Positions 1 to 38,428 of a DNA stretch of 64,000 nt are shown piece after piece. A model generated the notes under the pieces. It worked only from the letters and a program-made list of their open reading frames with translations, was not told the DNA's origin and ran no database searches. Within the stretch, counting starts at the first letter, position 1; each line of letters starts with the position of its first letter. This DNA comes from Octopus vulgaris. Its lineage: Eukaryota. The position numbers were made by a program, and so were the translations under genes. The stretch lies in contig CATOCA020000001.1 in assembly GCA_951406725.2 (NCBI GenBank), positions 3,472,001 through 3,536,000 on the forward strand, given 5' to 3'.

Positions 1-512
1 TGTATCTGCTGAGCCTGGAAGGGCATTGTTTATTATGAGCTACTTCCATGAAGTCAGTCATTAAAATTCAAACTATTATTGTCCCCGATTTCATCAATTG
101 AAGGATGTAAATTATGAAAAACGTCCAGAACTGACTTACCGAAAGGACAACGCTAGACTGTACATTTCTTTGCAGACTCAGCAGAAATTGGTGCAGCTTG
201 GGTGGGATGTCTTACCCCCCACACCGTACTAACCTGACCTTGCACGTTCGGATTATCATTTATTGGGATCCTTGCAGAATTCTCTTAATGGGAAGAACTT
301 TGATTGTTTAAAAGAGTGTAGAAGCCACTTAGACAAGTTAATGACCCAGAAAGTTCTGGAAGGACAGGGTCATGAAGCTGCCTCAAAGATGGCGAAAGAT
401 AGGGGAACAAAATGGGAAATATTTGGTTTGAGTAAAGCTATGCACGGCAATCTAAAGACTATTAAAAAATTTTACTTACAAAATGCTAGAAAGTTTTTTG
501 CAAACCGAACAA
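1..512 (+). mobile_element. mariner-family (DD34D) transposase relic, 3' part
   Basis: Frameshifted translation gives WKGIVYYELL, QKLVQLGWDVL, a degenerate YSPDLAPSDYHLF motif (PY*PDLARSDYHLL) and SLQNSLNGKNF; mariner-like terminal sequence near 490-512. Confidence 0.8.
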
Positions 513-776
513 ACACAGACATACATAATATAACGGTATTCATGACACACACACACACATATATATATACACACATACACAAATACACACACATACACAA
601 ACACATACACAAATACACACACATACACACACATACACATACAAATACACACACATACTCACATACATACACACAGCCTGTTCATATTTGAAAACTATTC
701 TTTATTTCATTTACGGGATTATTATATATCCGGAAAGGCATTATTACCCTCTCATCTCATTCATCATCTCACCTTG

Positions 777-1215
777 TATTCTCCCGTTTAGAGGTGCCAT
801 AATCAACTGCATTTTATATTTCATTTATATTTAGGGGAACAGGACAATCGAAGGAGACTTTTGGTATCGCTAAGCCAAACAGAAATAGCAGTTGACAAAT
901 ATGCCAGGAAAAGATCGTTTGGAATTCGTATTAAAGATTTAGGACGAGAAATAGGGAAAGGGTTAGAATATAAGTTGTAGCTATGGGTATTCTCACATTT
1001 ACAGGTTCCATAATCAACTGCATTTGAAACTTATTTTAATAAAGTTTAGGGGAACAGGACAAACGAAGGGACATTTGATATGGCTAAACCTAAAGAAACA
1101 GCAGTTGACAAATGTATCAGAAAAAATTCTTTTATTAGGGATTTAGAACGAGAGAAGGGTTTAAAAGAGAGGCCAAGCGTTTGAGTTTTTAGGTTAGGGT
1201 TTAAGTTGTAGGTAT
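777..1215. repeat. two diverged direct repeats of ~211 bp
   Basis: ccataatcaactgcattt...tttaggggaacaggacaa...gcagttgacaaat occurs at 797 and again at 1008. Confidence 0.75.
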
Positions 1216-1267
1216 TGGTTAGGTTTAAGGGTTACGGTATACAGGTTAAGTTTAGAAATACGTGGGG

Positions 1268-1344
<77 letters not shown>

Positions 1345-1584
1345 GTGAACATATGAGAAAACAAATAAGGTTTTTTAAAAATAAAAAATAAAGTATTTTT
1401 GTAATATCCAATGAGTAAGATGTAGAATTGTGAAACGAATTGTGTGAATAAGATACAGCTTTTCTTCCACCCCCCCATATATATATATACATATATATAT
1501 ATATACACATATATGTATATATGTATGTATGCATGTATATAGTATATGTATGTATGTGTGTTTGTATATAGGTATGTATGTATA

Positions 1585-1851
1585 CTCTTTTACTTGACCG
1601 CGGCCATGATGGAGCGGTGTCTTTTGGTGAAACAAATCGACACCAGAAATTATTCTGTACTGGTGCAGTACTTATTTTATCGGTTCCTTTTGTCGAACCG
1701 CTAATTTACGGGGACACAAACACACCAACATCGGTTGCCAAGCGATGATGAGAGGACAAACACAGACACACAAACAAGGATTTGGTCATCCCGAGGCTAT
1801 AGTAGAGGTCATTTTGCCAAAGTGGCAAGCAATGTAACTGAACCCCGAACC

Positions 1852-1855
<4 letters not shown>
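1585..1855 (-). mobile_element. tRNA-derived SINE family A, degenerate partial copy
   Basis: Similar to the complete copies at 12658-13055 and 25990-26400. Confidence 0.75.
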
Positions 1856-1880
<25 letters not shown>

Positions 1881-1882
<2 letters not shown>

Positions 1883-2238
1883 CTCTTTTACATGTTTCAG
1901 TCATTTGATTGTGCCATGCTGGAGCACCGCCTTTAGTCGAGCAAATCGACCCCGGGACTTATTCTTTGTAAGCCCAGTACTTATTCTATCGGTCTCTTTT
2001 GCTGAACCGCTAAGTGACGGGGACGTAAACACACCAGCATCGGTTGTCAAGCAATGCTAGCGGGACAAACACAGACACACAAGCATATACATATATACAA
2101 CAGGCTTCTTTCGGTTTCCGTCTATCAAATCCACTCACAAGACATTGGTCGACACTTGCCCAAGATGCCACGCAGTGGGACTGAACCCGGAACCATGTGG
2201 TTGGTTAGCAAGCTATTTACCACACAGCCACTCCTGCG

Positions 2239-2240
<2 letters not shown>
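1881..2240 (-). mobile_element. tRNA-derived SINE family A (octopus-type, CORE-like central domain)
   Basis: Minus-strand head ggcgcaggagtggctgtgtggtaa...ggttccgggttcagtccc (A/B-box-like), then cttgggcaagtgtc; many near-identical copies in the window. Confidence 0.9.
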
Positions 2241-2295
<55 letters not shown>

Positions 2296-2299
<4 letters not shown>

Positions 2300-3403
2300 A
2301 CGGAATCCCCCGAAAGCTGCTACAGAATCCCACCTGCCGTCGCTCGAACTCGAACCCGGGATCCCAACAAGTCGAGCGACGACGATTGATCAGGCTCGAT
2401 TGATCGACGCAAGTTCGCCACGGAGCCCAGAGAGGAGAGAGACAACAACAACAACAACAGCAGCAGGAAGAGACACAGAGGCAATCGGCTTGCATTTAAC
2501 CTACTAGTTTATAACACTTTTTAATTGTTACAACATCAAATAAATCAAGATACATATCAGGTACATCAAAGAGGAAATACATGCAAGAACAACACATCAA
2601 AGCATTCGGATACAATAACGGTTCAGATTGATGCAATATACAGTCCGGAGACAACAGTTCTGTCTCAAATCACATTAACGTTACAGTTCAGAGGACAATT
2701 AACACATATACGTTCAATGTTCATTAAATTATTTTCAGACAACAACAGAGTCTTTCTTGTCTTTTTCCTTCTTTCTCTTTTTTTTGTAACACGTATCAAT
2801 ACAATTCTTTTTACATAATTCACATATCAACACAATTCACAATGTTCGATTGTTTAACATAATGTCTTTATACTGTCTCATTTCTTTTCACATTAAGTCA
2901 TTAACACATCAACAAGTCCTTTACTCCGCACAACAACTCTTTTACATTTCCTTAATTCACAATGTCTTTATACATTTCTTTAGCCTTTTCTTTATAACAC
3001 ATCAACAACATAAACAAAACATATACCGTAAGTTCTTCGTTTACAAACTCTCACTACAAATAGCCATGCCTTCTCGCCGTAATCTCTCCCAGTCCCTTAA
3101 TCTTCTCTGCCTGTCTTCCTCTGCCACAGCAGAACAAACCATTACTAACTCGCTGTATCATCCCAACTGTTGCCTGTCTCTCACAAACTCCCAACTGCCG
3201 ACTGCTTGCCTTGAATCCCAAATGCCGACTGCCTCTCACAAACTGAACTGCTCACTTAAGAGGGTAGCCCTCAAATGAACCTTAATTCACCTGAAAGGGT
3301 CGGGGGTTTCCCCAGAGCTAATTATCAACCCGCATCTGGCAGAACAATGGATTCATTCCCAAAAGTAGGTCGCCAGCTCTGTCCTTAAGTTGAACTCACA
3401 ACA
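2296..3403 (-). mobile_element. probable solo LTR (Gypsy/BEL-like)
   Basis: 1108-bp non-coding insert with TGTT...AACA termini, flanked by atat on both sides within a (TA)n tract. Orientation inferred from Inr-like cagttcagtt and attaaa on the minus strand. Confidence 0.65.
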
Positions 3404-3778
<375 letters not shown>

Positions 3779-3861
3779 GCGCAGGAGTGGCTGAAATCAA
3801 ATGGATTTATGGATTTCATCAGATAATTGCTTTTTTCCATTGTAACTTATATCAACACTGG

Positions 3862-4225
3862 TTACTCCCTCCACTTTAATGGCGCTTTTCTCTGAAGCAT
3901 ATGTATATTACGTTGTAAGATCGGGTTAGTAGTATTGCTATTCCTAAGCGAAATAAGAAAATATGTATCGCAAATGACAATAATGTGGTTGATCTGTTCA
4001 GTCTTGCTTTTGTACGGCCTACATTTGTTGTGTGTCAGTGTGTTTTGCCTTCTATTCTGTAGGTAGTTGGCGGAGATGTCTTGATTTTGAATTGCATGGA
4101 GATAGCTTTCAAAGTGGGATGTCATAAATTAATCGCTCCTCCATGCCTAACTTCTGACATGATCAATCCCTTCTATGGTTTGTGCGGAGCGGGCTTTTTC
4201 TTCTAGTCTTAATAAGGAACCTACC
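3862..4225 (-). pseudogene. RLE-type (R2/R4/NeSL group) non-LTR retrotransposon fragment
   Basis: TSHFESYLHAIQNQDISANYL...KCR...E.INHII..C resembles the CCHC-knuckle region that precedes an RLE domain (compare 39842-40063). Confidence 0.6.
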
Positions 4226-4870
4226 TTTTCTCTGAAAATGGTCCTTTCTAATATTTCTTTCCACACCACAGCTAACTCAGTCTTTGCTGGGTTAAGCAAT
4301 CTACACTAAGGTTTATTCTCTAAGTTTACTTTATGGTCCTTCACCGTTGGAAAAGAGGGTCGTGCGTGCCAGATAGTCTATCCTATCATCTATTTGTAGT
4401 TTTGTTGCAAACACTTTGGTTTCTAGATTAATAGATATATAAGCTCCATTTCTAGATTTCTTATAAATAAAGGAAGCCCTTTTATATATACAAACCCCTT
4501 GACTATGTATATTCTTTATTTTATCGTAGGAAACATGTAACTGATATGATTTGTGTCAATATATGAATTGTTCGTTCATCTTACATTGGAAGCTATTTGG
4601 CATCTGATGAAACATGAATCTTTTTTAAGATATTTAAAACACATTCTTTCACTTTCCCAACATCCATTTGTTATTCAGTTGGTATCATATTCTGAAGTCA
4701 CATTTTTTCATCTTTATATCACCCAGGCACTCCGCTTTCAAAACAATGAACACGCCAGCTCAATCGTCTTATAAAGCATTCTGTTTTTTGCCAACGTACA
4801 TTTCACGTAATAATTCGTCTCGAAATTGGAAGGTCCTTGGTCGAGAAATCGAATTGATGTTTATTCCTGA
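4225..4870 (-). pseudogene. Penelope-like reverse transcriptase relic
   Basis: Minus-strand FPTVKDHKVNLENKP*CRLLNPAKTELAVVWKEILER matches the PLE RT N-terminal motif (TLKDHK..F..KP.CRLINP.K.E.G). Confidence 0.7.
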
Positions 4871-4954
4871 TCAGACCGATTATATTGATCCGTCTTTGTT
4901 AAGTGCAAAACAGCAACTAAAGAAAGCTGAACATTTCATATATTATTTTATTCG

Positions 4955-5135
4955 TTTACTCTTTTACTTGTTTCAGTCATTTGACTGCGGCCATGCTGGA
5001 ACACCACCTTAAAGTGTGTTAGTCGAAGGAATCGACCCCAGGACTTATTCTTTGTAAGCGTAGTGCTTACTCTATCGTTTGTTTTACCGAACTGCTAAGT
5101 TAGTTACGGTGACTAAAACGCACCAACTTCGGTTT
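4955..5135 (-). mobile_element. SINE family A, 3' half
   Basis: tttcagtcatttgactgcggccatgctgg...gacttattctttgtaagc matches the family tail. Confidence 0.8.
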
Positions 5136-5378
5136 TTATAAATGTTCTCTTTTATAAACATTCTCTTTATAAATGTTCTGAAATCTTTCATAGCCTTGGA
5201 TTTTTTTTTATCGCATTCTGTGACCTTTTTTATATATACACATGCTGATATATGACCTACGTTGGAACCTCATTCCTATAATCATCGAACCTGGAGCTTC
5301 ACTATAGTCTGTCCATACCATTTACTCAGCATTACCTGACACCTTTGTGTCTTCTTGACACCATTACCTCTCATAACC

Positions 5379-5433
<55 letters not shown>

Positions 5434-5524
5434 CCACTTATGTATATCAGGTTCGAAAGAAAGACCTGCATTTGAATTTCAAGATGACAAAGAAACAGTG
5501 CCTGAAATAAATAGCAGCATTAAT

Positions 5525-5577
5525 CAGCAGCAGCGCTACCGCCGCATAGAATTACCAGGCCATAGCTGCTGCCTGCT
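5525..5577 (+). other. candidate rolling-circle origin stem-loop (CRESS-virus-like)
   Basis: TAGAATTAC at 5547-5555 (one mismatch to TAGTATTAC) between imperfect inverted arms gcagcagc(gc)ta...gcc and ggc...tagctgctgc, ~70 bp upstream of the capsid-like ATG. Confidence 0.5.
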
Positions 5578-5626
5578 GCCTATGACGTAATAGCCTGCAA
5601 CATCCTAGCAGTCGTCAGTCAGCATT

Positions 5627-6355
5627 ATGCTGTACAGGAGACGCCCACGCATTATAGGCAGGCGAAAGAGTTTTTTAGGAAGAGGAATGTATTACGTAAT
5701 CGGAGACGTTATCGACGCCGTCGGCAGTATCGTCGTCGCCGTAATGGAAGATACACTATTTATCCTCTACCCCCCCCGTGTTAGACAATCATCAGTTCAA
5801 TCTTTTTTTAAAGTGGAACAACTAAAAATTAAAGATGAAAAAACTCCTATGACAATATCATGTACATGGGCACAAATGAATGATTCAATTGAGAATGTAA
5901 AAGCTAACATATGGAGAACGCTATTCGATCAGTGGCAGGTTCTACGTTTCCGATATGTATTTGAAGTATATAAAAAACAAAAAGCTGGTGCAATTATCCC
6001 AAGACTATATTACACTTACGATCGAGATATTCAAGGCAAACATATAGATGACTCAGAAATATTTAACATATTAAGAGAAAACAGAAGAGTTAAAGTTTCC
6101 TATCGTCCAAGATGGACTTGGATTACACACGATAAAAGTAATGATGAAGGTGACCCTAACCCATATCCTAATACGATCGTTAGAGGTTCACAACGATGGG
6201 ATATGGCACCAGCTCCTTTCGGTGAAAATCCAAACAAAGCATTTCCTCAACATAGTTATAACGGTATGGCTATGGTTCTTCATGCTCAGCCTAACTCCAG
6301 TATACTTCTACGTAAATTTATTGGTCGAAGAGATACCCAAATTTACAAAAATTGA
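5627..6355 (+). CDS. endogenous CRESS-DNA-virus (circovirus-like) capsid protein
   Basis: 242-aa non-repetitive ORF with a basic start (MLYRRRPRIIGRRKS) and a -1-frame Arg-rich arm at 5677-5769. WRTLFDQWQVLRFRYVF, PRLYYTYDRD, KVSYRPRW and PQHSYNG resemble motifs of CRESS jelly-roll capsids. No TE motifs. Assigned by eye only. Confidence 0.7.
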   Translation: MLYRRRPRIIGRRKSFLGRGMYYVIGDVIDAVGSIVVAVMEDTLFILYPPRVRQSSVQSFFKVEQLKIKDEKTPMTISCTWAQMNDSIENVKANIWRTLFDQWQVLRFRYVFEVYKKQKAGAIIPRLYYTYDRDIQGKHIDDSEIFNILRENRRVKVSYRPRWTWITHDKSNDEGDPNPYPNTIVRGSQRWDMAPAPFGENPNKAFPQHSYNGMAMVLHAQPNSSILLRKFIGRRDTQIYKN

Positions 6356-6584
6356 CTAGTCTCATCGAGATGGGAAGACAATTATGGTTCAGTTGGTGAA
6401 TGTGAAGAAGAAAGAGATCCTGAGAGGAAAAGAGACTGAATATTATTTCAACTTACCGTTTACACGTGAAGAATGAACTAGAAACAATTTTCTCGCTGTA
6501 ACCGATCTTCAGTTTTAAATTTAATAAAGCAAGCGCATGCGAATTTTGGGTTAGAAAGATAGACACACATAGATATGTAGATGT

Positions 6585-6740
6585 ATACGATGGTCTTCGC
6601 CCCGTTTCCATCTAGCAAATCCACTTACAAGACTTTGTAAGGCTATAGTAGTAGGCTATAGTAGTAGACACTTGCCGAACATGCCACGCAGTGGGACTGA
6701 ACTCGGAACCATGTGGTTGGAAAGCCACGCCTGCGCCTAT
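6585..6740 (-). mobile_element. SINE family A, 5' half, degenerate
   Basis: gccacgcagtgggactgaactcggaaccatgtggttgg. Confidence 0.8.
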
Positions 6741-6744
6741 AAAT

Positions 6745-7015
6745 CATCTGTTTGGAAGCTAGTTTGTGAGGGAAAGCCTCTTGCTTTGTTAATCATCGTT
6801 TGTAATCATACAAATGTCTTACAAATTTTATAGTTCCGGATAATGGGTCTGAAAGAAAGATTTACATTCTCTCTTTAAGATTTCCAGTTCAGCCAAAATT
6901 CACTCCAGACTGGTCGGTACACATCCTCTTGCTCCAATAATACAAAGCTGAAAGTGTAACTTGGGGACTGGATTTGCAAACACCTTATCAATGTTTCATG
7001 AATGTCCGCTTTCTT
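6745..7015 (-). pseudogene. RLE endonuclease C-terminal relic of a non-LTR element
   Basis: Frameshifted minus-strand translation LIRCLQIQSPSYTFSF..IIGARGCVPTSL...LSGTIK resembles the P.IIGA.G motif at the end of RLE domains. Confidence 0.5.
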
Positions 7016-7039
7016 TTCTATTTTTTATACGCATATCGA

Positions 7040-7590
7040 TGTTGTGTATGTATGTATGTATGTGTATGTATGTATGTATGTATGTATGTATGTGTGTATG
7101 TATGTAGGTATGTATGTATGTATGTATGTGTGTATGTATGTGTGTATGTATGTGTGTGTGTATGTATGTGTGTGTATGTATGTATGTGTGTATGTGTGTA
7201 TGTATGTATGTATGTGTGTGTATGTATGTATGTATGTATGTATGTGTGTATGTGTGTGTATGTGTGTGTGTATGTATCTATGTATGTGTGTATGTGTGTA
7301 TGTATGTATGTGTGTATGTGTGTGTATGTATGTGTGTGTATGTATGTGTGTGTATGTATGTATGTATGTATGTGTGTATGTATGTATGTGTGTGTATGTA
7401 TGTATGTATGTGTGTGTATATGTATGTATGTGTGTGTATGTATGTATGTGTGTATGTATGTATGTATGTATGTGTGTATGTATGTGTATGTATGTATGTG
7501 TATGCAATTATGTATGTATGCGTGTATGCATGTATGTATGTGTGTGTATGTATGTGTGTATGTATGTATGTATGCAATTATGTATGTATG
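7040..7590. repeat. (TGTA)n/(TG)n compound microsatellite
   Basis: Direct reading; source of several spurious ORFs. Confidence 0.97.
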
Positions 7591-7597
7591 CATATTT

Positions 7598-8092
7598 CGA
7601 GTGCTACTGGTAACATGTAATCCAGTACAACCTGTTGTATGGTCGGGTCGTCAGCGACTAAACCGGCAACCTCACCAAGCTCGCTTGGTGAGGAGGGTGT
7701 TTATTGGACACCCTGCAGGATGATAAACAAAACCCGTCAAAGGGCGGAGGAACTCTTGTGAGTCAACGGCCATCCGATAAATGTCTTAAGGCTGTATCAT
7801 GCGCGGGGACATAGAAATAATCGGATTGAATACCCGATCGCGCAGTTAAACCATTGGGAGTGAAGGACTTCTAGCCATTGTTAGGGTATCCTTCTAGGAG
7901 AAGGTAATTCAGGTAACTGGGATAACTCCAATATAAAACCTGCGGCTCAGTGTTTACCGATGATGTTGACTTGTTCTTCTTTTCGGATTATGGCTGCTGT
8001 TGCTTAGTGAGTGGGATTGACTCAGTGCACAGCCTTTCCTCACTTTAAAAAAAAATCTTCTTGCACAGGCAGTGTACGATAACAACATTTAT
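7598..8092 (+). mobile_element. RTE-5'UTR-like non-autonomous element
   Basis: Contains ctaggagaaggtaa...taaaacc (RTE 5'UTR-type motif); reverse-complement homologues at ~44600-44745 and ~49900-50113. Confidence 0.6.
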
Positions 8093-9380
8093 TAAGTTGA
8101 GGGTTGGCATCGAGTACAGTGAAGAATTCCGGGTAGAGGTTGGGGTCCACCAAGGTTCAGTCCTCAGTCCCCTCCTATTTATCATAGTCCTCCAGGCAAT
8201 AACGGAGGAATTCAAGACAAGATGCCCCTGGGAGCTCCTCTATGCTGATGACCTTGCTGTAATTGCTGAGTCTCTATCAGAACTAGAGGGGAAGTTTCAG
8301 GTGTGGAAGCAAGGTTTAGAATCAAAGGGCCTTAGAATCAATCTAGCCAAAACCAAAGTCTTAATAAGTTGGAAGGTAGACAAATCACAAACGCCTTCAG
8401 CTAGATGGCCCTGCTCGATCTGTAAAAAAGGCGTAGGTAGAAACTCTATACGATGCATCAAGTGTAAGCTATGGACACATAAGAGATGTAGTAATGTCAA
8501 AGGAAGACTAACTAGGAAAATAGTTTTTATCTGTGGCAGATGCTCAGGAGCAATAAACACTGAAAATGCACAGAGACCAACTTCCGCCACATTCCAGGGA
8601 GAAAAACTAGAAATAGTTGATAGCTTCCGTTACCTAGGTGACCAAGTCAGTAGCGGGGGCGGGTGTGCTGAAAGTGTAACTGCTAGAGTAAGAATAGCCT
8701 GGGCAAAGTTCAGAGAGCTCTTACATCTGCTGGTGACAAAAGGCCTCTCGCTCAGAGTAAAAGGCAGACTGTATGATGCATGTGTACGTACAGCCATGCT
8801 ACATGGTAGTGAAACATGAGCTGTGACTGCTGAGGATATGTGTAAGCTCGCAAGAAATAAAGCCAGTATGCTCCAATGGATGTGTAATGTCAGTGTTCAT
8901 ACTCGGCAGAGTGTAAGTACCTTGAGAGAAAAGTTGGACCTAAGCAGCATCAGTTGTGGTGTGCAAGAGAGACGTTTGCACTGGTATGGTCATGTGGCAA
9001 GAATGGATGAAGATAGTTGTGTGAAAAAGTGCCACACCCTAGCGGTTGAGGGAACCTGTGGAAGAGGTAGACTCAGGAAAACCTGGGACGAGGTGGTGAA
9101 GCACGACCTTCGAACATTAGGTCTCACCGAGGAAATGACTAGTGACCGAGACCTTTGGAAGTATGCTGTGCATGAGAAGACCCGGCAGGACAAGTGAGAC
9201 CATAACCCGTGGCCTCTACCTGGGATGTAGCCAGTCCACTTGTGCATGCCTTTCCTTCTTGGGACACAAAACTCTACTTGTGAGGACCTGTTGAGGCAAG
9301 TGAAAATCGAAATTGATCAACATAAATGGAAATTGTAGTTGTGATACCAGTGCCAGTGACATGTAAGAGAACCATCTGAA
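8093..9380 (+). mobile_element. 5'-truncated RTE LINE (RT 3' half, PHD-like finger, partial 3'UTR)
   Basis: GVHQGSVLSPLLF, LLYADDL, RRLHWYGHV, GRGRLRKTW; premature stop at 8817-8819; close to the 36329-38428 ORF. Confidence 0.92.
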
Positions 9381-9384
9381 CGAT

Positions 9385-20619: not shown

Positions 20620-23600
20620 CAGCATGACTGTGTGGTTTAGAAGCCCACTTTGCAACCATGAGGTTTTGAGTTCGGACCCACTGTGCAGCACCTTGGGCAG
20701 ATGTTTTCTGCTACAGCTAAGTTTTCTGCCTTTGGAGGCTATGGCTATGGCTCCCGCAACGAGGAGGGAACCAGGCTGCTGGAGTTCTGCGATGCAAATA
20801 ATCTTATGATTTGCAACACTAACTTCAGGAAACCTACCAGCCACCTAGTCACTTACCGATCGGGCCAACATACCAGCCAAATTGACTACATCCTTGCAAG
20901 GCAAAGGGAGAGATGGCTTCTTATAAATGCCAAAACCTTCCCAGGCGAAGAATGTACCCCACAACATAGACTGGTAGTTAGTGACTTTAGGATCAGGACT
21001 AGGAGGACAACCAGAAGACTAACAATATGGAGAAGAAGGATTTGGAAGCTTAAAGATCCTGCAAATGGACAGAGATTTAGGGACATATTACTTGAAGCCT
21101 TTGACGAAGTAGAAGGGGATAGAGCATCACAGGGGGTAGAAGACAACTAGACGTTTCTAAGGGACAACATGCTGAGAGCCACTGACCAGATCTGTGGCTG
21201 GTGCAAAAGTCCCCTCTCGACCTAGAATAACGTGGTGGTGGAACAATATTGTAGACAGGGCTATTAGAGAAAAGAGACAGGCTTGGAAGGTCTGGAAAAA
21301 TGGGGGTAGCAGGGAATTGTATCAGACTGCCAAAAGAGAAGCTAGGAGACAGGTTTATTTAGCCAGAGGGGAAGCAGATAAGAAAAAATTTGCCAATGTT
21401 CTGCACCGTGAGGACAAAAGACTGGAGGTGTTTCGCGTTGCAAGACAGTGTGTGAGAGAGAATCGTGATGTGGTAGGAGAGAAGTGTGTTCGCATGGAAG
21501 ATGGTTCACTTGCGCTAAATGAGGATGCAAAGAGAGAGGTTTGAAGACGCCACTATGAAAGGTTGCTGAATAAAGAAAATGAATGGGATAAAGAGAGTCT
21601 GCCAAATGTTGACCCAACAGAGGGACAAGCTATCTGAGTTGATAGTTCCGTGGTAGCTAAGACAATTAGAAGCATGAAGACAGGGAAAGCCCCAGGCCCA
21701 TCAGGAATCACTGCAGAGATGCTCAAAATGTCTGGTAGTGTCGGCTATAGCCTAGTCACCCGTATAGTTAATCAGGTAATACACAAAGGAGTCATACCCA
21801 ATGACTGGTGTAGCAGCATAATAGTCAACTGCTACAAAGGTAAAGGTGACGCCCTAGATACAAATAACTACAGAGGTATCAAGGTGTTGGATCAGGTGAT
21901 GAAGGTTACGGAGAGGGTCATAGCCCAACTAATTAGAGAGAGAGTTAGTTTAGATGAGATGCAGTTTGATTTTGTGCCAGGGAAAAGTACCACTGATGCT
22001 ATATTCCTGGTAAGGCAGCTGCAGGAGAAATACCTAGCCAAAGATAAGCCCCTGTACCTGGCTTTTGTTGACATGGAAAAATCCTTCGACAGGGTCCCCC
22101 AATCCATTATCTGGTGGTCAATGAGGAAACTAGGGATAGATGAATAGTTAGTGAGAGCTGTGCGGGCCATGTATAGGGACGCTGCTAGTAAGGTGAGGGT
22201 TGGCAACGAGTACAGTGAAGAATTCCGGGTAGAGGTAGGGGTCCACCAAGGCTCAGTACTCAGCCCCCTCCTATTTATCATAGTCCTCTAGGCAATAACG
22301 GAGGAATTCAAGACAGGATGCCCTTGGGAGCTCCTCTATGCTGATGACCTTGCTCTAATTGCTGAGTCGCTATCAGAACTGGAGGAGAAGTTTCAGGTGT
22401 GGAAACAAGGATTAGAATCGAAGGGCCTCAGAGTCAATCTAGCTAAAACCGAAGTCGTAATCAGTAGGAAGGTAGACAAATCACAAACGCCTTCAGGTAG
22501 ATGGCCCTGCTCGATCTGTAGAAAAGGTGTAGGTAGAAACTCTATAAGATGCACCAAGTTTAAGCTATGGACACATAAGAGGTGCAGCAATGTCAAAGGA
22601 AGGCTAACTAGGAAGATGGTTTTTGTATGTGGCAGATGCTCAGGAACAATAAACACTGAAAATGCTCTGAGACCAACTTCCGTCACTTTCCAGGGAGAAA
22701 AACTAGAAATAGTTGATAGTTTCCGTTACCTAGGTGACCAAGTCAGCAGCGGGGTTGGGTGTGCTGAAAGTGTAACTGCTAGAGTAAGAATAGCTTGGGC
22801 AAAGTTCAGAGAGCTCTTACCTCTGCTGGTGACAAAAGGCCTCTCGCACAGAGTGAAAGGCAGACTGTATGATGCGTGTGTATGAACAGCCATGCTACAT
22901 GGCAGTGAAACATGGGCCGTGACTGCTGAGGATATGCGTAAGCTCGCAAGAAATGAAGCCAGTATGCTCCGATGGATGTGTAATGTCAGTGTTCATACTC
23001 GGCAGAGTGTAAGTACCTTGAGAGAAAACCTGGACCTAAGAAGCATCAGTTGTGGTGTGCAAGAGAGACGTTTGCGCTGGTATGGTCATGTGGCGAGAAT
23101 GGATGAAGATAGTTGTGTGAAAAGTGCCACACCCTAGCGGTTGAGGGAACCTGCGGAAGAGGCAGACCCAGTAAAACCTGGGACGAGGTGGTGAAGCACG
23201 ACCTTCGAACTTTAGGTCTCCCTGAGGAAATGACTAGAGACCGAGACCTCTGGAAGTATGCTGTGCGCGAGAAGACCCGGCAGGACAAGTGAGTTCATAA
23301 CCCGTGGCCTTCTACATGGGATGGAGCCAGCCTACGTATGCATACCTTCCCTTCTTGGGACACAAAACTCAACTTGTGAAGACGTGTTGAGGCAAGTGAG
23401 GATCAGAATTGAAATCGATCAATGGAAATTGCAGATGTGTTACCAGTGCCGGTGGCATGTAAGAGAACCTTCCGTTTCGCGACCGTTGCCAGCGCCGCCC
23501 CGACTGGCCTCCGTGCCGGTGGCACATAAAAAGCACCATCCGTTCATGGCCGTATGCCAGCTCTGTCTGGTACCTGTGCGGGTGGCACGTAAAAAGCACC

Positions 23601-34707: not shown

Positions 34708-35259
34708 ACCATCATCGCCATATATAAAAGAGCGATCGCATTATCGTTAACCCCACTCGCTTCAAAATATCTAAAGAAGAAATACGCACAGATCATGAAT
34801 GGCTAAAGCTAAGTGAATCGTTCAACCTCGCTACGACTACCTTCTATCTTTGCACTTATCATCTTTATTCTTTCACTATTCTTCAATTTCCATCTCATTG
34901 TATTGTTCCTCATTGTTTCAGTATTCCCTCATTACCCTGTCTAGCTCAAACATTTTTTTCGTTTAGTCTTGTCTCCCGGTTCATAGCCACTCTGATTTTT
35001 AAATTTTTTCGTTTAGTCTTGTCTCCCGATTCATAGCCACTCTGATTTATCAAACCCATTTGCTAGCTCATACGATTAACAGAACCTACGGTGCACCCGC
35101 CCTCCCACTCCCTCCACACATGCCGGAAGTTCCTATTCTTTGCCATTCCGGGGTTGCTTCCCATGAAGACTGCAAATGCTCTCACTATCCCTACCACTCC
35201 CTAGTCTCGACCTATGTAAGGTAATGTTCATACAGTGCAAAATATGAAAGGCTAGTGTT

Positions 35260-36285
35260 ATGCAGGTTGTACTGAAGGCTACTTTACTACTTCATTACTT
35301 GCACATGAATTCTGCCAAATGCGAGCTTTCTTTTCAGGTACACGAAGCTACTGTCCACCGTCCCAGGGTCCCTAGTGCCCATGCCTCCCACACCCTCCGG
35401 GTTGGCACCCTCAACGTTGGCACTCTGAAAGGTAGGTCTGGTGAGATAGTCGAGATGCTTGAACGGAGATGTGTGGATATATGTTGCATGCAAGAAATAA
35501 GGTGGAGAGGAGGATCAGCTAGGTTCCTCACAGGCAAGGAACGCAGGTACAAGATTTTCTGGGCAGGGAACACTGACGGGGTTGGTGGCGTGGGTATACT
35601 TATCGCTGAGAAATGGGTAGATAAAGTAATTGAGGTAATCAGAGTATGTGACAGAATACTTAAGATTAGATTAGTGCTTCATCATAGTTTAGCAACCATT
35701 ATATCAGCCTATGCTCCTCAGTCGGGGCTACCCGATGGACAGAAAGACCGATTCTATGACACTCTACTGCAGACTACCTCGTTGACGAATGACAGAGACC
35801 TTATCTTTGTGGCTGGTGACTTCAATGGTCACGTTGGACGACATGCTGGGGGCTTCCATGGCGTACATGGAGGCTATGGCTATGGCTCCCGCAACGAGGA
35901 GGGAACCAGGCTGCTGGAGTTCTGCGATGCAAATAATCTTATGATTTGCAACACTAACTTCAGGAAACCTACCAGCCACCTAGTCACTTACCGATCGGGC
36001 CAACATACCAGCCAAATTGACTACATCCTTGCAAGGCAAAGGGAGAGATGGCTGCTTATAAATGCCAAAACCTTCCCAGGTGAAGAATGTATCCCACAAC
36101 ATAGACTGGTAGTTAGTGACTTTAGGATCAGGACTAGGAGGACAACCAGAAGACGACAAATATGGAGAAGAAGGATCTGGAAGCTTAAAGATCCTGCAAA
36201 TGGACAGAGGTTTAGGGACATATTACTTGAAGCCTTTGGCGAAGTAGAAGGGGATAGAGCATCACAGGGGGTAGAAGACAACTAG
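35260..36285 (+). CDS. RTE apurinic-type endonuclease ORF
   Basis: VGTLNVGTL, CCMQEIRW, GVGIL, ISAYAPQ, AGDFNGHVG, SQIDYIL, QHRLVV. Confidence 0.9.
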   Translation: MQVVLKATLLLHYLHMNSAKCELSFQVHEATVHRPRVPSAHASHTLRVGTLNVGTLKGRSGEIVEMLERRCVDICCMQEIRWRGGSARFLTGKERRYKIFWAGNTDGVGGVGILIAEKWVDKVIEVIRVCDRILKIRLVLHHSLATIISAYAPQSGLPDGQKDRFYDTLLQTTSLTNDRDLIFVAGDFNGHVGRHAGGFHGVHGGYGYGSRNEEGTRLLEFCDANNLMICNTNFRKPTSHLVTYRSGQHTSQIDYILARQRERWLLINAKTFPGEECIPQHRLVVSDFRIRTRRTTRRRQIWRRRIWKLKDPANGQRFRDILLEAFGEVEGDRASQGVEDN

Positions 36286-36328
36286 ACATTTCTAAGGGAC
36301 AACCTGCTGAGAGCCACTGACCAGATCT

Positions 36329-38428
36329 GTGGCTGGTGCAAAAGTCCCCTCCCGACGTAGAATAACGTGGTGGTGGAACAATATTGTAGACAGGGCTATT
36401 AGACAAAAGAGACAGGCTTGGAAGGTCTGGAAAAATGGGGGTAGCAGGGAATTGTATCAGACTGCCAAAAGAGAAGCTAGGAGACAGGTTTATTTAGCCA
36501 GAGGGGAAGCAGATAAGAAAAAATTTGCCAATGTTCTGCGACTTGAGGACCAAAGACTGGAGGTGTTTCGCGTTGCAAGACAGTGTGTGAGAGAGAATCG
36601 TGATGTGGTAGGAGAGAAGTTTGTTCGCATGGAAGATGGTTCACTTGCGCTAAATGAGGATGCAAAGAGAGAAGTTTGGAGATGCCACTATGAAAGGTTG
36701 CTGAATAAAGAAAATGAATGGGATAAAGAGAGTCTGCCGAATGTTGACCCAACAGAGGGACCAGCTATCCGAGTTGATAGTTCCGTGGTAGCTAAGGCAA
36801 TTAGAAGCATGAAGACAGGGAAAGCCCCAGGCCCATCAGGAATCACTGCAGAGATGCTCAAAATGTCTGGTAGTGTCGGCTATAGCCTAGTCACCCGTAT
36901 AGTTAATCAGGTGATACACAAAGGAGTCATACCCAATGACTGGGGTAGCAGCATAATAGTCAACTGCTACAAAGGTAAAGGTGACGCCCTAGATACAAAT
37001 AACTACAGAGATATCAAGCTGTTGGATCAGATGATGAAGGTTACGGAGAGGGTCATAGCCCAACTAATTAGAGAGAGAGTTAGTTTAGATGAGATGCAGT
37101 TTGGGTTTGTGCCAGGGAAAAGTACTACTGATGCTATATTCCTGGTAAGGCAGCTGCAGGAGAAATACCTAGCCAAAGATAAGCCCCTGTACCTGGCTTT
37201 TGTTGACATGGAGAAAGCCTTCGACAGGGTCCCCCGATCCCTTATCTGGTGGGCAATGAGGAAACTAGGGATAGATGAATGGTTAGTGAGAGCTGTGCGG
37301 GCCATGTACAGAGACGCTGCTAGTAAGGTGAGAGTTGGCAACGAGTACAGTGAAGATTTCCGGGTAGAGGTTGGGGTCCACCAAGGTTCAGTCCTCAGTC
37401 CCCTCCTATTTATCATAGTCCTCCAGGCAATAACGGAGGAATTCAAGACAGGATGCCCTTGGGAGCTCCTCTATGCTGATGACCTTGCTCTAATTGCTGA
37501 GTCGCTATCAGAACTGGAGGAGAAGTTTCAGGTGTGGAAACAAGGATTAGAATCGAAGGGCCTCAGAGTCAATCTAGCTAAAACCAAAGTCGTAATCAGT
37601 AGGAAGGTAGACAAATCACAAACGCCTTCAGGTAGATGGCCCTGCTCGATCTGTAGAAAAGGTGTAGGTAGAAACTCTATAAGATGCACCAAGTGTAAGC
37701 TATGGACACATAAGTGGTGCAGCAATGTCAAAGGAAGGCTAACTAGGAATATGGTTTTTGTATGTGGCAGATGCTCAGGAACAATAAACACTGAAAATGC
37801 TCTGAGACCAACTTCCGTCACTTTCCAGGGAGAAAAACTAGAAATAGTTGATAGTTTCCGTTACCTAGGTGACCAAGTCAGCAGCGGGGTTGGGTGTGCT
37901 GAAAGTGTAACTGCTAGAGTAAGAATAGCTTGGGCAAAGTTCAGAGAGCTCTTACCTCTGCTGGTGATAAAAGGCCTCTCGCACAGAGTGAAAGGCAGAC
38001 TGTATGATGCGTGTGTACGAACAGCCATTCTACATGGCAGTGAAACATGGGCCGTGACTGCTGAGGATATGCGTAAGCTCGCAAGAAATGAAGCCAGTAT
38101 GCTCCGATGGATGTGTAATGTCAGTACTCATACTCGGCAGAGTGTAAGTACCTTGAGAGAAAACCTGGACCTAAGAAGCATCAGTTGTGGTGTGCAAGAG
38201 AGACGTTTGCGCTGGTATGGTCATGTGGCGAGAATGGATGAAGATAGTTGTGTGAAAAAGTGCCACACCCTAGCGGTTGAGGGAACCTGTGGAAGAGGCA
38301 GACCCAGGAAAACCTGGGATGAGGTGGTGAAGCACGACCTTCGAACTTTAGGTCTCACTGAGGAAATGACTAGAGACCGAGACCTATGGAAGTGTGCTGT
38401 GCGCGAGAAGACCCGGCAGGACAAGTGA
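36329..38428 (+). CDS. RTE reverse transcriptase ORF with a C4HC3 PHD-like finger
   Basis: 699 uninterrupted codons (GTG start in the track): QFGF, FVDMEKAFDRV, GVHQGSVLSPLLF, LYADDL, YLG, RRLRWYGHV. Confidence 0.93.
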   Translation: MAGAKVPSRRRITWWWNNIVDRAIRQKRQAWKVWKNGGSRELYQTAKREARRQVYLARGEADKKKFANVLRLEDQRLEVFRVARQCVRENRDVVGEKFVRMEDGSLALNEDAKREVWRCHYERLLNKENEWDKESLPNVDPTEGPAIRVDSSVVAKAIRSMKTGKAPGPSGITAEMLKMSGSVGYSLVTRIVNQVIHKGVIPNDWGSSIIVNCYKGKGDALDTNNYRDIKLLDQMMKVTERVIAQLIRERVSLDEMQFGFVPGKSTTDAIFLVRQLQEKYLAKDKPLYLAFVDMEKAFDRVPRSLIWWAMRKLGIDEWLVRAVRAMYRDAASKVRVGNEYSEDFRVEVGVHQGSVLSPLLFIIVLQAITEEFKTGCPWELLYADDLALIAESLSELEEKFQVWKQGLESKGLRVNLAKTKVVISRKVDKSQTPSGRWPCSICRKGVGRNSIRCTKCKLWTHKWCSNVKGRLTRNMVFVCGRCSGTINTENALRPTSVTFQGEKLEIVDSFRYLGDQVSSGVGCAESVTARVRIAWAKFRELLPLLVIKGLSHRVKGRLYDACVRTAILHGSETWAVTAEDMRKLARNEASMLRWMCNVSTHTRQSVSTLRENLDLRSISCGVQERRLRWYGHVARMDEDSCVKKCHTLAVEGTCGRGRPRKTWDEVVKHDLRTLGLTEEMTRDRDLWKCAVREKTRQDK

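What the first reader, a model, noticed from the sequence alone, without database searches (positions are those of the whole stretch)
5430..6550. Candidate endogenous CRESS-DNA virus segment (capsid gene plus origin) in an octopus-type genome
Seen: the only long non-TE, non-repeat ORF in the window (5627-6355), in a ~1.1 kb island bounded by microsatellite and SINE sequence. It has a basic N-terminus, an upstream nonanucleotide hairpin and AATAAA at 6523-6528. Established: circovirus-like capsids are about 230-300 aa, with an Arg-rich DNA-binding arm followed by a jelly-roll containing F/Y-D-x-Y/W, Y-x-x-x-D-x-D and (F/Y)-R/K-P motifs; most reported CRESS endogenous elements are Rep rather than Cap. 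Inference: germline integration of a ssDNA virus, which would implicate a cephalopod as host. The open core suggests recent integration or retention.
Basis: partly seen in the sequence, partly recalled or inferred. Interest (0 to 1): 0.9.

Follow-up and report, generated by a model that had tools for sequence, protein, structure and literature searches.

The report
Fossil DNA virus capsid in octopus
A 1.1-kb stretch of the common octopus genome holds a broken gene predicted to encode the coat protein of a small circular DNA virus, next to a hairpin like a viral replication origin, and with a dozen related fragments elsewhere in the genome it shows that such viruses likely infected octopus germ cells.

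Summary
Largely confirmed, with corrections. Window 5432-6552 is an integrated piece of a CRESS-DNA virus in Octopus vulgaris. The core (5780-6352) is predicted to fold as a single jelly-roll with circovirus capsids as best matches. The hairpin nonamer (TAGAATTAC, 5547-5555) aligns with TAGTATTAC origins of sister elements. Contigs from three other runs cross the right junction (one crosses both), and a paralogous host segment on contig C4 lacks the virus. There it has about 2.5 kb of host repeats and an intact SINE, so the insertion replaced host DNA. Searches found 13 related loci (6 Cap, 9 Rep, 2 with both), including a more-than-unit-length ori-Rep-Cap-ori element. The nearest named Rep is from Anicreviridae (Mulpavirales), not a circovirus. 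It is a decaying fossil, not a retained gene. An end match 1,099 nt apart hints at a Cap-only half-size circle (about 30%). I found no paper reporting octopus CRESS elements, but one key survey was unavailable.

The parts
5432..6552 (+). Endogenous CRESS-DNA virus segment (origin + capsid gene + 3' non-coding region); left edge uncertain within 5425-5450
   Evidence: Matches only its C31 duplicate over full length; absent from the C4 paralog; held as one contig in runs X6, X8, X9
5382..5424 (.). Host (AT)21 microsatellite ending a host repeat; left junction lies in or just after it
   Evidence: C4 paralog matches up to 5424 and then differs
5450..5465 (+). 16-mer matching the right junction (6549-6564) at 14 of 16 letters, 1,099 nt apart; possible trace of a 1.1-kb circle joined by microhomology
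   Evidence: D8; 3 of 3000 shuffles reach 14 of 16. Not a target-site duplication: only the part from 6553 is host DNA
5525..5578 (+). Origin-like stem-loop
   Evidence: 82% identical over 65 nt to the C12 element's hairpin; 18 nt of it are missing in the C31 duplicate and in runs X6, X8, X9
5547..5555 (+). Nonanucleotide TAGAATTAC (8 of 9 to TAGTATTAC)
   Evidence: Aligned with TAGTATTAC in the C12 and C15 elements; hairpin pattern found 2 times in 2.8 Gb, reversed control 0
5627..6355 (+).
5680..5772 (+). Arginine-rich capsid arm, in a different frame from the ORF
   Evidence: tblastn of related capsids hits this stretch in frame 2 and the core in frame 3
5770..5777 (+). C8 run at the frame break between arm and core; length varies among copies
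   Evidence: (window, duplicate), table 4 (runs X6, X8, X9)
5780..6352 (+). Capsid core, predicted single jelly-roll; lacks about 7 residues near 6066 and about 5 in the last strand near 6320 compared with relatives
   Evidence: alignments; fold; ESM Atlas
6523..6528 (+). Polyadenylation-type signal AATAAA
   Evidence: no converging signal on the other strand after the stop codon
6537..6552 (+). Short 3' intergenic motif shared with the C11 and C12 elements; last viral bases
6553..6745 (+). Host SINE, cut at its 5' side by the insertion
   Evidence: The C4 and C1 copies carry the uninterrupted upstream part

Best explanation
This is an integrated, broken copy of part of a small circular single-stranded DNA virus (an origin-like hairpin plus a gene predicted to encode a circovirus-type capsid), likely captured when a chromosome break in an octopus germ cell was repaired and likely decaying without function since. 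Shown: viral-type sequence joined to host repeats in several runs; a paralogous host segment without it; sister elements with Rep, Cap and canonical origins; lesions in this copy. Inferred: a replicating viral DNA was ligated into a double-strand break by end joining, with microhomology at the right junction, and replaced up to about 2.5 kb of host DNA including the head of a SINE. A later 15-kb segmental duplication made the second C31 copy. Insertion falls between the split from the C4 paralog (3.8% substitution divergence) and the C31 duplication (0.5-1.0%); with a recalled octopus rate of about 0.0036 per site per million years that is roughly 1-5 million years ago. Repeated independent insertions (12 after merging the C31 pair), plus a related Rep in O. 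bimaculoides, imply a virus lineage that infects octopuses. By Rep it is a monopartite, two-gene virus near Anicreviridae (Mulpavirales).
For: Fold: AlphaFold2 with 35 sequences, pLDDT 70, pTM 0.66. Top PDB hits are BFDV and bat circovirus capsids (Foldseek E 4e-5, TM 0.54; VIA Z 10.1, rmsd 4.0, 158 aligned). The named top BFVD hits are CRESS capsids (E 6e-9, TM 0.66). ESM Atlas top hits are Circo_capsid clusters (0.95, 197 of 256 features). HMMER found 20 relatives, 4 of 20 with sub-cut-off PF02443; 1 of 7 further ones passes the cut-off. Origin. Family: 6 Cap matches, 10 Rep matches at 8 loci, 1 Viral_Rep domain; C15 element is ori-Rep-Cap-ori with nonamers 2,144 nt apart. Integration: single contigs over 5442-6692 in X6 and X8 and over 5325-6710 in X9; 19 of 24 listed runs hold half or more of the words, holders in 10 studies; host state on C4 and C1. 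Decay. Rep tree: octopus Reps on one branch (SH-aLRT 93) inside a clade with DflaCV-10 (96).
Against: No direct Pfam match for the ORF and no single-sequence homologue. The ESM recognition value 2153 is under the 2300 guide. The fold model depends on added distant sequences (pLDDT 36 with 6 sequences), and Z 10 stands only about 1.5 above plant-virus jelly-rolls. No Rep lies at this locus, so its link to the Rep lineage rests on capsid similarity (36-44% to the Cap of Rep-bearing loci) and the shared origin. The left junction is crossed by one run only (X9). No free virus of this lineage was found in IMG/VR or JGI metagenomes. The tree is a quick tree with 146 columns and a single classified reference.
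Confidence: 0.87

Rival explanations
1. The sequence came from a virus of an octopus parasite or symbiont (for example a coccidian or dicyemid) and entered the octopus germline by accident, so the octopus is not the host.
For: Several CRESS lineages turned out to infect gut protists (PMC9615429, passages seen). No free virus has been tied to octopus tissue here.
Against: At least 12 independent loci with diverged Caps and Reps, both origin polarities, and a close relative in a second Octopus species (88% aa). That frequency is hard to get without replication in octopus cells. The octopus Reps group together.
Confidence: 0.07
2. The ORF is a co-opted, expressed host gene (for example an antiviral decoy capsid), or the locus is kept as a source of antiviral piRNAs.
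For: A 242-codon frame is open in both assembled copies; the two indels between them are in frame; a poly(A) signal is present; several runs guessed to be RNA hold most of the words.
Against: The arm is out of frame. Structured parts of the core are deleted. In 3 of 3 runs covering it, the C run differs from the window by a number not divisible by three. 0 of 5 substitutions between duplicates are synonymous (expected share 0.21, P 0.32, so no sign of purifying selection but little power). A small-RNA role was not tested.
Confidence: 0.05
3. Assembly chimera with a contaminating virus.
For: None from the calls; the left junction lies in a microsatellite, where assemblies can err.
Against: Present twice on C31 inside a 15-kb duplicated host segment, in runs of 10 studies, contigs cross the junctions, and it carries lesions a live virus could not have.
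Confidence: 0.01

Closest known systems
CRESS-DNA endogenous elements of molluscs (Modiolus, Mytilus, Biomphalaria, Conus) in Dennis et al. 2018, PMC6069186 (passages and supplements searched)
   Same: Germline fossils of divergent CRESS viruses in mollusc genomes
   Different: All new elements there were Rep-derived, none Cap. Octopus bimaculoides stands in the list of screened species but I saw no hit for it (one supplementary file could not be searched). Here Cap, origin and a more-than-unit-length genome are preserved in a cephalopod.
Dragonfly larvae associated circular virus-10 (Manawavirus kapowais; Anicreviridae; Mulpavirales)
   Same: Nearest named Rep to the sister elements: 49% identity over the helicase region, same supported clade, taxonomy
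   Different: Octopus Reps form their own branch and are closer to unnamed metagenomic Reps (up to 57%, leaving aside P0004, which groups with the octopus Reps). Its capsid was not among the hits of this capsid. Known from environmental samples, host unproven (recalled).
Circoviridae capsids (BFDV 5j36/5j09, bat circovirus 6rpl)
   Same: Best solved-structure matches; Arg-rich arm followed by single jelly-roll; stem-loop with TAGTATTAC in sister elements
   Different: 5-12% sequence identity; no PF02443 match for this ORF; the associated Rep is nearest to Mulpavirales
Half-size defective DNAs of gemini- and circoviruses, and monocistronic nanovirus components (recalled)
   Same: About 1.1 kb, origin plus one gene plus poly(A) signal; the C12 sister element keeps origin and Cap but has lost nearly all of Rep

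Membership tests
Endogenous Cressdnaviricota (CRESS-DNA) element | Single jelly-roll capsid of circovirus type | tested here: met
Endogenous Cressdnaviricota (CRESS-DNA) element | Arginine-rich N-terminal arm | tested here: met
   Present in the DNA at 5680-5772 but in another frame than the core; arm as a general feature: PMC11945456, passage seen
Endogenous Cressdnaviricota (CRESS-DNA) element | Stem-loop origin with NANTATTAC nonamer | tested here: met
   8 of 9 here, 9 of 9 at the aligned place in C12 and C15
Endogenous Cressdnaviricota (CRESS-DNA) element | HUH endonuclease plus SF3 helicase Rep in the same element | tested here: not met
   No Rep match on C31. Met in sister elements with homologous Cap and origin: C15, C11 (helicase), C14 (endonuclease, PF02407 81 bits)
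Endogenous Cressdnaviricota (CRESS-DNA) element | Joined to host chromosome in the germline | tested here: met
Endogenous Cressdnaviricota (CRESS-DNA) element | Circular source molecule | tested here: inconclusive
   C15 sister has a 175-nt terminal repeat 2,144 nt apart; this segment has only the 14 of 16 end match
Circoviridae | Rep groups with Circovirus/Cyclovirus | tested here: inconclusive
   Nearest named Rep is Anicreviridae; no curated circovirus references in the tree; one distant hit is named 'Circoviridae sp.'
Circoviridae | Capsid matches PF02443 at cut-off | tested here: not met
   0 families for the ORF and for 3 sister Caps
Anicreviridae (Mulpavirales) | Rep falls inside the family clade | tested here: inconclusive
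   Clade with DflaCV-10 at SH-aLRT 96, but only 1 classified member among 114 rows, quick tree
Anicreviridae (Mulpavirales) | ICTV genome-organisation and identity criteria | not testable with these tools
   The defining paper was not in the library; only 2 papers mention the family
Nanoviridae-like multipartite virus component | Rep and Cap on separate circles | tested here: not met
   C15 and C11 carry Rep and Cap convergently on one molecule
Defective or satellite Cap-only circle | Origin plus Cap, no Rep, closed circle of about half genome size | tested here: inconclusive
   No Rep remnant, no converging poly(A) signal, end match at 1,099 nt; a simple fragment of a full genome is not excluded

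The most novel reading that the evidence does not exclude
Octopuses host their own lineage of Mulpavirales ssDNA viruses with an uncatalogued capsid family, and this locus is the fossil of a 1.1-kb capsid-only circle: a helper-dependent satellite or second component that keeps the family origin but encodes a capsid only 36-44% identical to those of the Rep-bearing genomes. That would be an animal counterpart to the one-gene circles of nanoviruses in the same order.
Probability: 0.2. Interest if true: 0.8.

Novelty: new member of a known kind. Interest (0 to 1): 0.6.

Why it matters
Most CRESS viruses have no known host, and fossils in genomes are the main way to assign one. This set would tie a Mulpavirales lineage near Anicreviridae to cephalopods, a farmed and much studied group with few described viruses (my knowledge; one search listed RNA viruses and nodavirus reports, no ssDNA virus in the listing). 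It preserves capsid genes and origins, which mollusc elements reported so far lacked, and a near unit-length genome that shows gene order. The capsid family is missing from Pfam and from the viral collections scanned, so it gives new probes for screening octopus hatcheries and cephalopod assemblies. The locus is also a clean case of insertion with an empty paralogous site, so it can be dated.

Tried and rejected
Pfam on the ORF: 0 families. Single-sequence homologue search: 57 candidates, none significant. Folding with 6 sequences: pLDDT 36, not used. PDB by sequence profile: only E 1.3 and 2.7, the latter on the Arg-rich arm of BFDV. IMG/VR scans with Cap alignment and with Rep: 31 and 7 pattern matches, 0 confirmed. 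JGI metagenomes with the Cap alignment: 142 matches, 0 confirmed. Expression: no listed holder is on record as RNA. X9, guessed to be RNA, covers the flanks as deeply as the element; X19 has low-depth pieces over 5780-6266 and 6325-6622. Neither shows transcription. The organism labels A, B and C were not used as proof of several species: the X6 and X8 contigs differ from the window at only 3 letters. Target-site duplication for the 16-mer: rejected, the host state has different sequence before 6553. Retroposed viral mRNA: unlikely, the origin lies upstream of the ATG, there is no A tail, and host DNA was lost. Uncollapsed haplotype for the second C31 copy: unlikely, similarity stops at the ends of a 15-kb block that also occurs on C4. 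P0144 (S-layer protein) was dropped from the 20 HMMER hits as spurious; P0134 and P0142 were left out of alignments A3 and A4 for aberrant tails. The Rep tree is the quick one; the careful search did not finish. Literature: searches gave 0 papers; one search gave 1 unrelated paper; searches listed none on octopus CRESS elements by title or abstract start. 'Octopus' occurs 0 times in the main text of PMC10193959, PMC9615429, PMC6069186 and 0 times in the two supplements of PMC10193959. Zhao, Lavington and Duffy 2021 (doi 10.1111/jeb.13927) is not held and may list the O. bimaculoides Rep. Earlier findings of this scan: none.

Full report
Observation. The ORF at 5627-6355 exists (242 aa) and is the longest ORF in the window that is not from a transposon or microsatellite. 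None of 1000 shuffles of the 1.1-kb island gave an open frame of 190 codons. The island lies between (AT)21 at 5382-5424 and a SINE from 6553. AATAAA is at 6523. A hairpin at 5525-5578 folds at -14.3 kcal/mol, matched by 4 of 200 shuffles, and carries TAGAATTAC at 5547-5555. Only the first 15 or so residues are basic; residues 16-50 are not arm-like, while a neighbouring frame over the same bases has 16 arginines in 51 codons against 8. Related capsids hit that stretch in one frame and the core in another. The ORF is thus a patchwork with breaks near 5670 and at the C run 5770-5777.

The protein. Pfam and a single-sequence search found nothing. A profile of the six copies in this genome found 20 proteins among 1.84 billion; 4 of 20 match Circo_capsid below the cut-off, 1 was spurious. 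A second round gave 7 new ones, 3 with Circo_capsid, 1 over the cut-off. The ESM Atlas ranks Circo_capsid clusters first (0.95; 197 of 256 features), though the recognition value is below its guide line. With 35 sequences AlphaFold2 gave a beta-rich model at pLDDT 70 (36 with 6 sequences). Its best PDB matches are BFDV and bat circovirus capsids (Foldseek E 4e-5, TM 0.54; VIA Z 10.1, rmsd 4.0 over 158 residues, next non-circovirus Z 8.7), and the named best BFVD matches are CRESS capsids from aquatic and other samples (E 6e-9, TM 0.66). The core is a circovirus-type jelly-roll of a family without its own Pfam model. Against relatives it lacks about 7 residues near 6066 and about 5 in the last strand.

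A family in the genome. The window is G000:C31:3472001-3536000 in a 2.8-Gb assembly. Rep proteins of two sister loci are identical to records named for Octopus vulgaris. The core matches 6 places: itself, a 97% copy 3 Mb away on C31, and C12, C15, C11, C6 (44, 36, 44, 68%). A Rep helicase query matches 10 places at 8 loci and PF02407 one more on C14. That is 13 loci, 12 after merging the C31 pair; counts are lower bounds, and the two weakest Rep loci (E 1e-6, 1e-4) may come from other lineages. The C15 element reads origin-Rep-Cap-origin with TAGTATTAC hairpins 2,144 nt apart and a 175-nt terminal repeat, the form expected from a circle; its Rep has motif I and III but a gap between them. C11 has Cap and a Rep helicase in convergent order. 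C12 has Cap, an origin 82% identical over 65 nt to the window's, a Rep-like start and only the last codons of Rep. The aligned origins share the loop and inner stem, and a pattern for the hairpin occurs exactly twice in the genome, here and on C12, with 0 for the reversed control. The nonamer lies on the Cap strand here and on C12 but on the Rep strand on C15.

Taxonomy. The nearest named Rep is that of Dragonfly larvae associated circular virus-10 (49%), filed under Anicreviridae, Mulpavirales. In a quick tree of 114 helicase regions the two O. vulgaris Reps, an O. bimaculoides Rep and one unnamed record form one branch (SH-aLRT 93) inside a clade with that virus (96). With one classified reference, family membership is open. 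The O. bimaculoides protein (LOC106882589) is 88% identical to the C11 Rep over 258 residues; orthology could not be tested.

Integration. 19 of 24 listed runs hold at least half of the element's words; holders come from 10 studies. Of 4 runs laid, X6 and X8 have one contig over 5442-6692 and X9 over 5325-6710, so three cross the right junction and one the left. The element sits in a 15-kb block duplicated on C31. A third copy of the block near the start of C4 has no virus; between the same flanks it has about 2.5 kb of host repeats, and the SINE that is cut at 6552/6553 in the window is whole there and at a C1 locus. The insertion therefore replaced host DNA, as expected from repair of a double-strand break (inference). 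Substitution divergence is 126 of 3317 (3.8%) to C4, 33 of 3319 (1.0%) between C31 flanks and 6 of 1103 (0.5%) inside the element. With a recalled rate of about 0.0036 per site per million years, the insertion is roughly 1-5 million years old.

Decay, not retention. The C run at the frame break has five different lengths in the five copies seen (two assembled, three runs), and in all three runs it differs from the window by a number not divisible by three. Contigs may mix the two copies, and homopolymers are error-prone, so this is supporting rather than decisive. 18 nt of the hairpin are missing in the duplicate and in those runs. All 5 substitutions between the duplicates in the core change the residue (expected synonymous share 0.21; P 0.32). 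Together with the out-of-frame arm and core deletions, the open frame is best read as chance. Expression was not shown either way.

Fragment or Cap-only circle. No Rep lies on C31, no converging poly(A) signal follows the stop, and bases 5450-5465 match the right junction at 14 of 16 letters 1,099 nt away, which 3 of 3000 shuffles reach. This is what a 1.1-kb circle opened and joined by microhomology would leave, and the C12 element shows that Rep-deleted molecules occur in this family. A plain fragment of a full genome, or a local template switch, also fits. I put a Cap-only circle at about 0.3 and a true satellite or second component at about 0.2.

Known or new. CRESS elements are reported from mussels and snails, all from Rep; O. 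bimaculoides was on the screened list without a hit that I could find (PMC6069186, passages and 4 of 5 supplementary files). Ten literature searches found no paper on octopus CRESS elements. Automatic database names already call two octopus proteins Rep-like, and Zhao et al. 2021 could not be read, so the Rep side may be listed somewhere. Verdict: a real, ordinary-in-mechanism endogenous viral element that is new in host and lineage; novelty 'new member of a known kind', interest 0.6.

Noticed in passing
L028 2804-5122 (G000:C15:38111804-38114122): More-than-unit-length CRESS element, origin-Rep-Cap-origin, unit 2,144 nt, two TAGTATTAC hairpins; terminal repeats about 90% identical; Rep has an internal gap and Cap has breaks. 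Its Rep part is annotated as a hypothetical octopus protein (CAI9733846.1).
   Followed up: partly
L005 1489-3048 / L029 (G000:C11:25.61 Mb): Cap and Rep helicase in convergent order; the Rep frame is open for 266 codons and 88% identical to O. bimaculoides LOC106882589. Possible orthologous or co-opted helicase. A 7-transmembrane receptor fragment (PF00001) abuts it on the other strand (L005 2867-3382).
   Followed up: partly
L003 1107-2025 (G000:C12:6.092 Mb): Element with origin, Cap and a Rep reduced to its start and last codons; looks like a defective, Rep-deleted molecule.
   Followed up: partly
L061 1420-1790 (G000:C14:64.338 Mb): Rep endonuclease domain with motifs I-III and its leader inserted into an IS1595/Merlin-like transposase (PF12762, weak).
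   Followed up: partly
G000 C3:10.37 Mb, C30:3.38 Mb, C1:220.8 Mb, C17:60.8 Mb, C15:76.3 Mb, C1:162.0 Mb, C6:7.17 Mb: Further degraded Rep (six) or Cap (C6) fragments.
   Followed up: no
window 1-9382 and 5.5 kb upstream; G000:C31:6447233-6465324; G000:C4:71389-95159: A 15-kb host block present at three places with nearly the same ends; may be a large mobile unit or a duplication hub.
   Followed up: partly
window 42352-64000: Tandem segmental duplication with a period of about 9.3 kb at 95-98% identity, containing LINE and Tc1-like remnants.
   Followed up: no
window 35248-38428, 20662-23460, 8049-9197: Copies of one LINE (endonuclease plus reverse transcriptase), the first nearly full length with a 705-codon open frame; 92-97% identical to each other.
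   Followed up: no
window 1192-1240: Short telomere-like tandem repeat (GGTTAG-type units).
   Followed up: no
P0008, P0011, P0018: Related Reps on long ENA contigs (0.2-5.4 Mb), possibly endogenous elements of this clade in other eukaryotes; sources unnamed.
   Followed up: no
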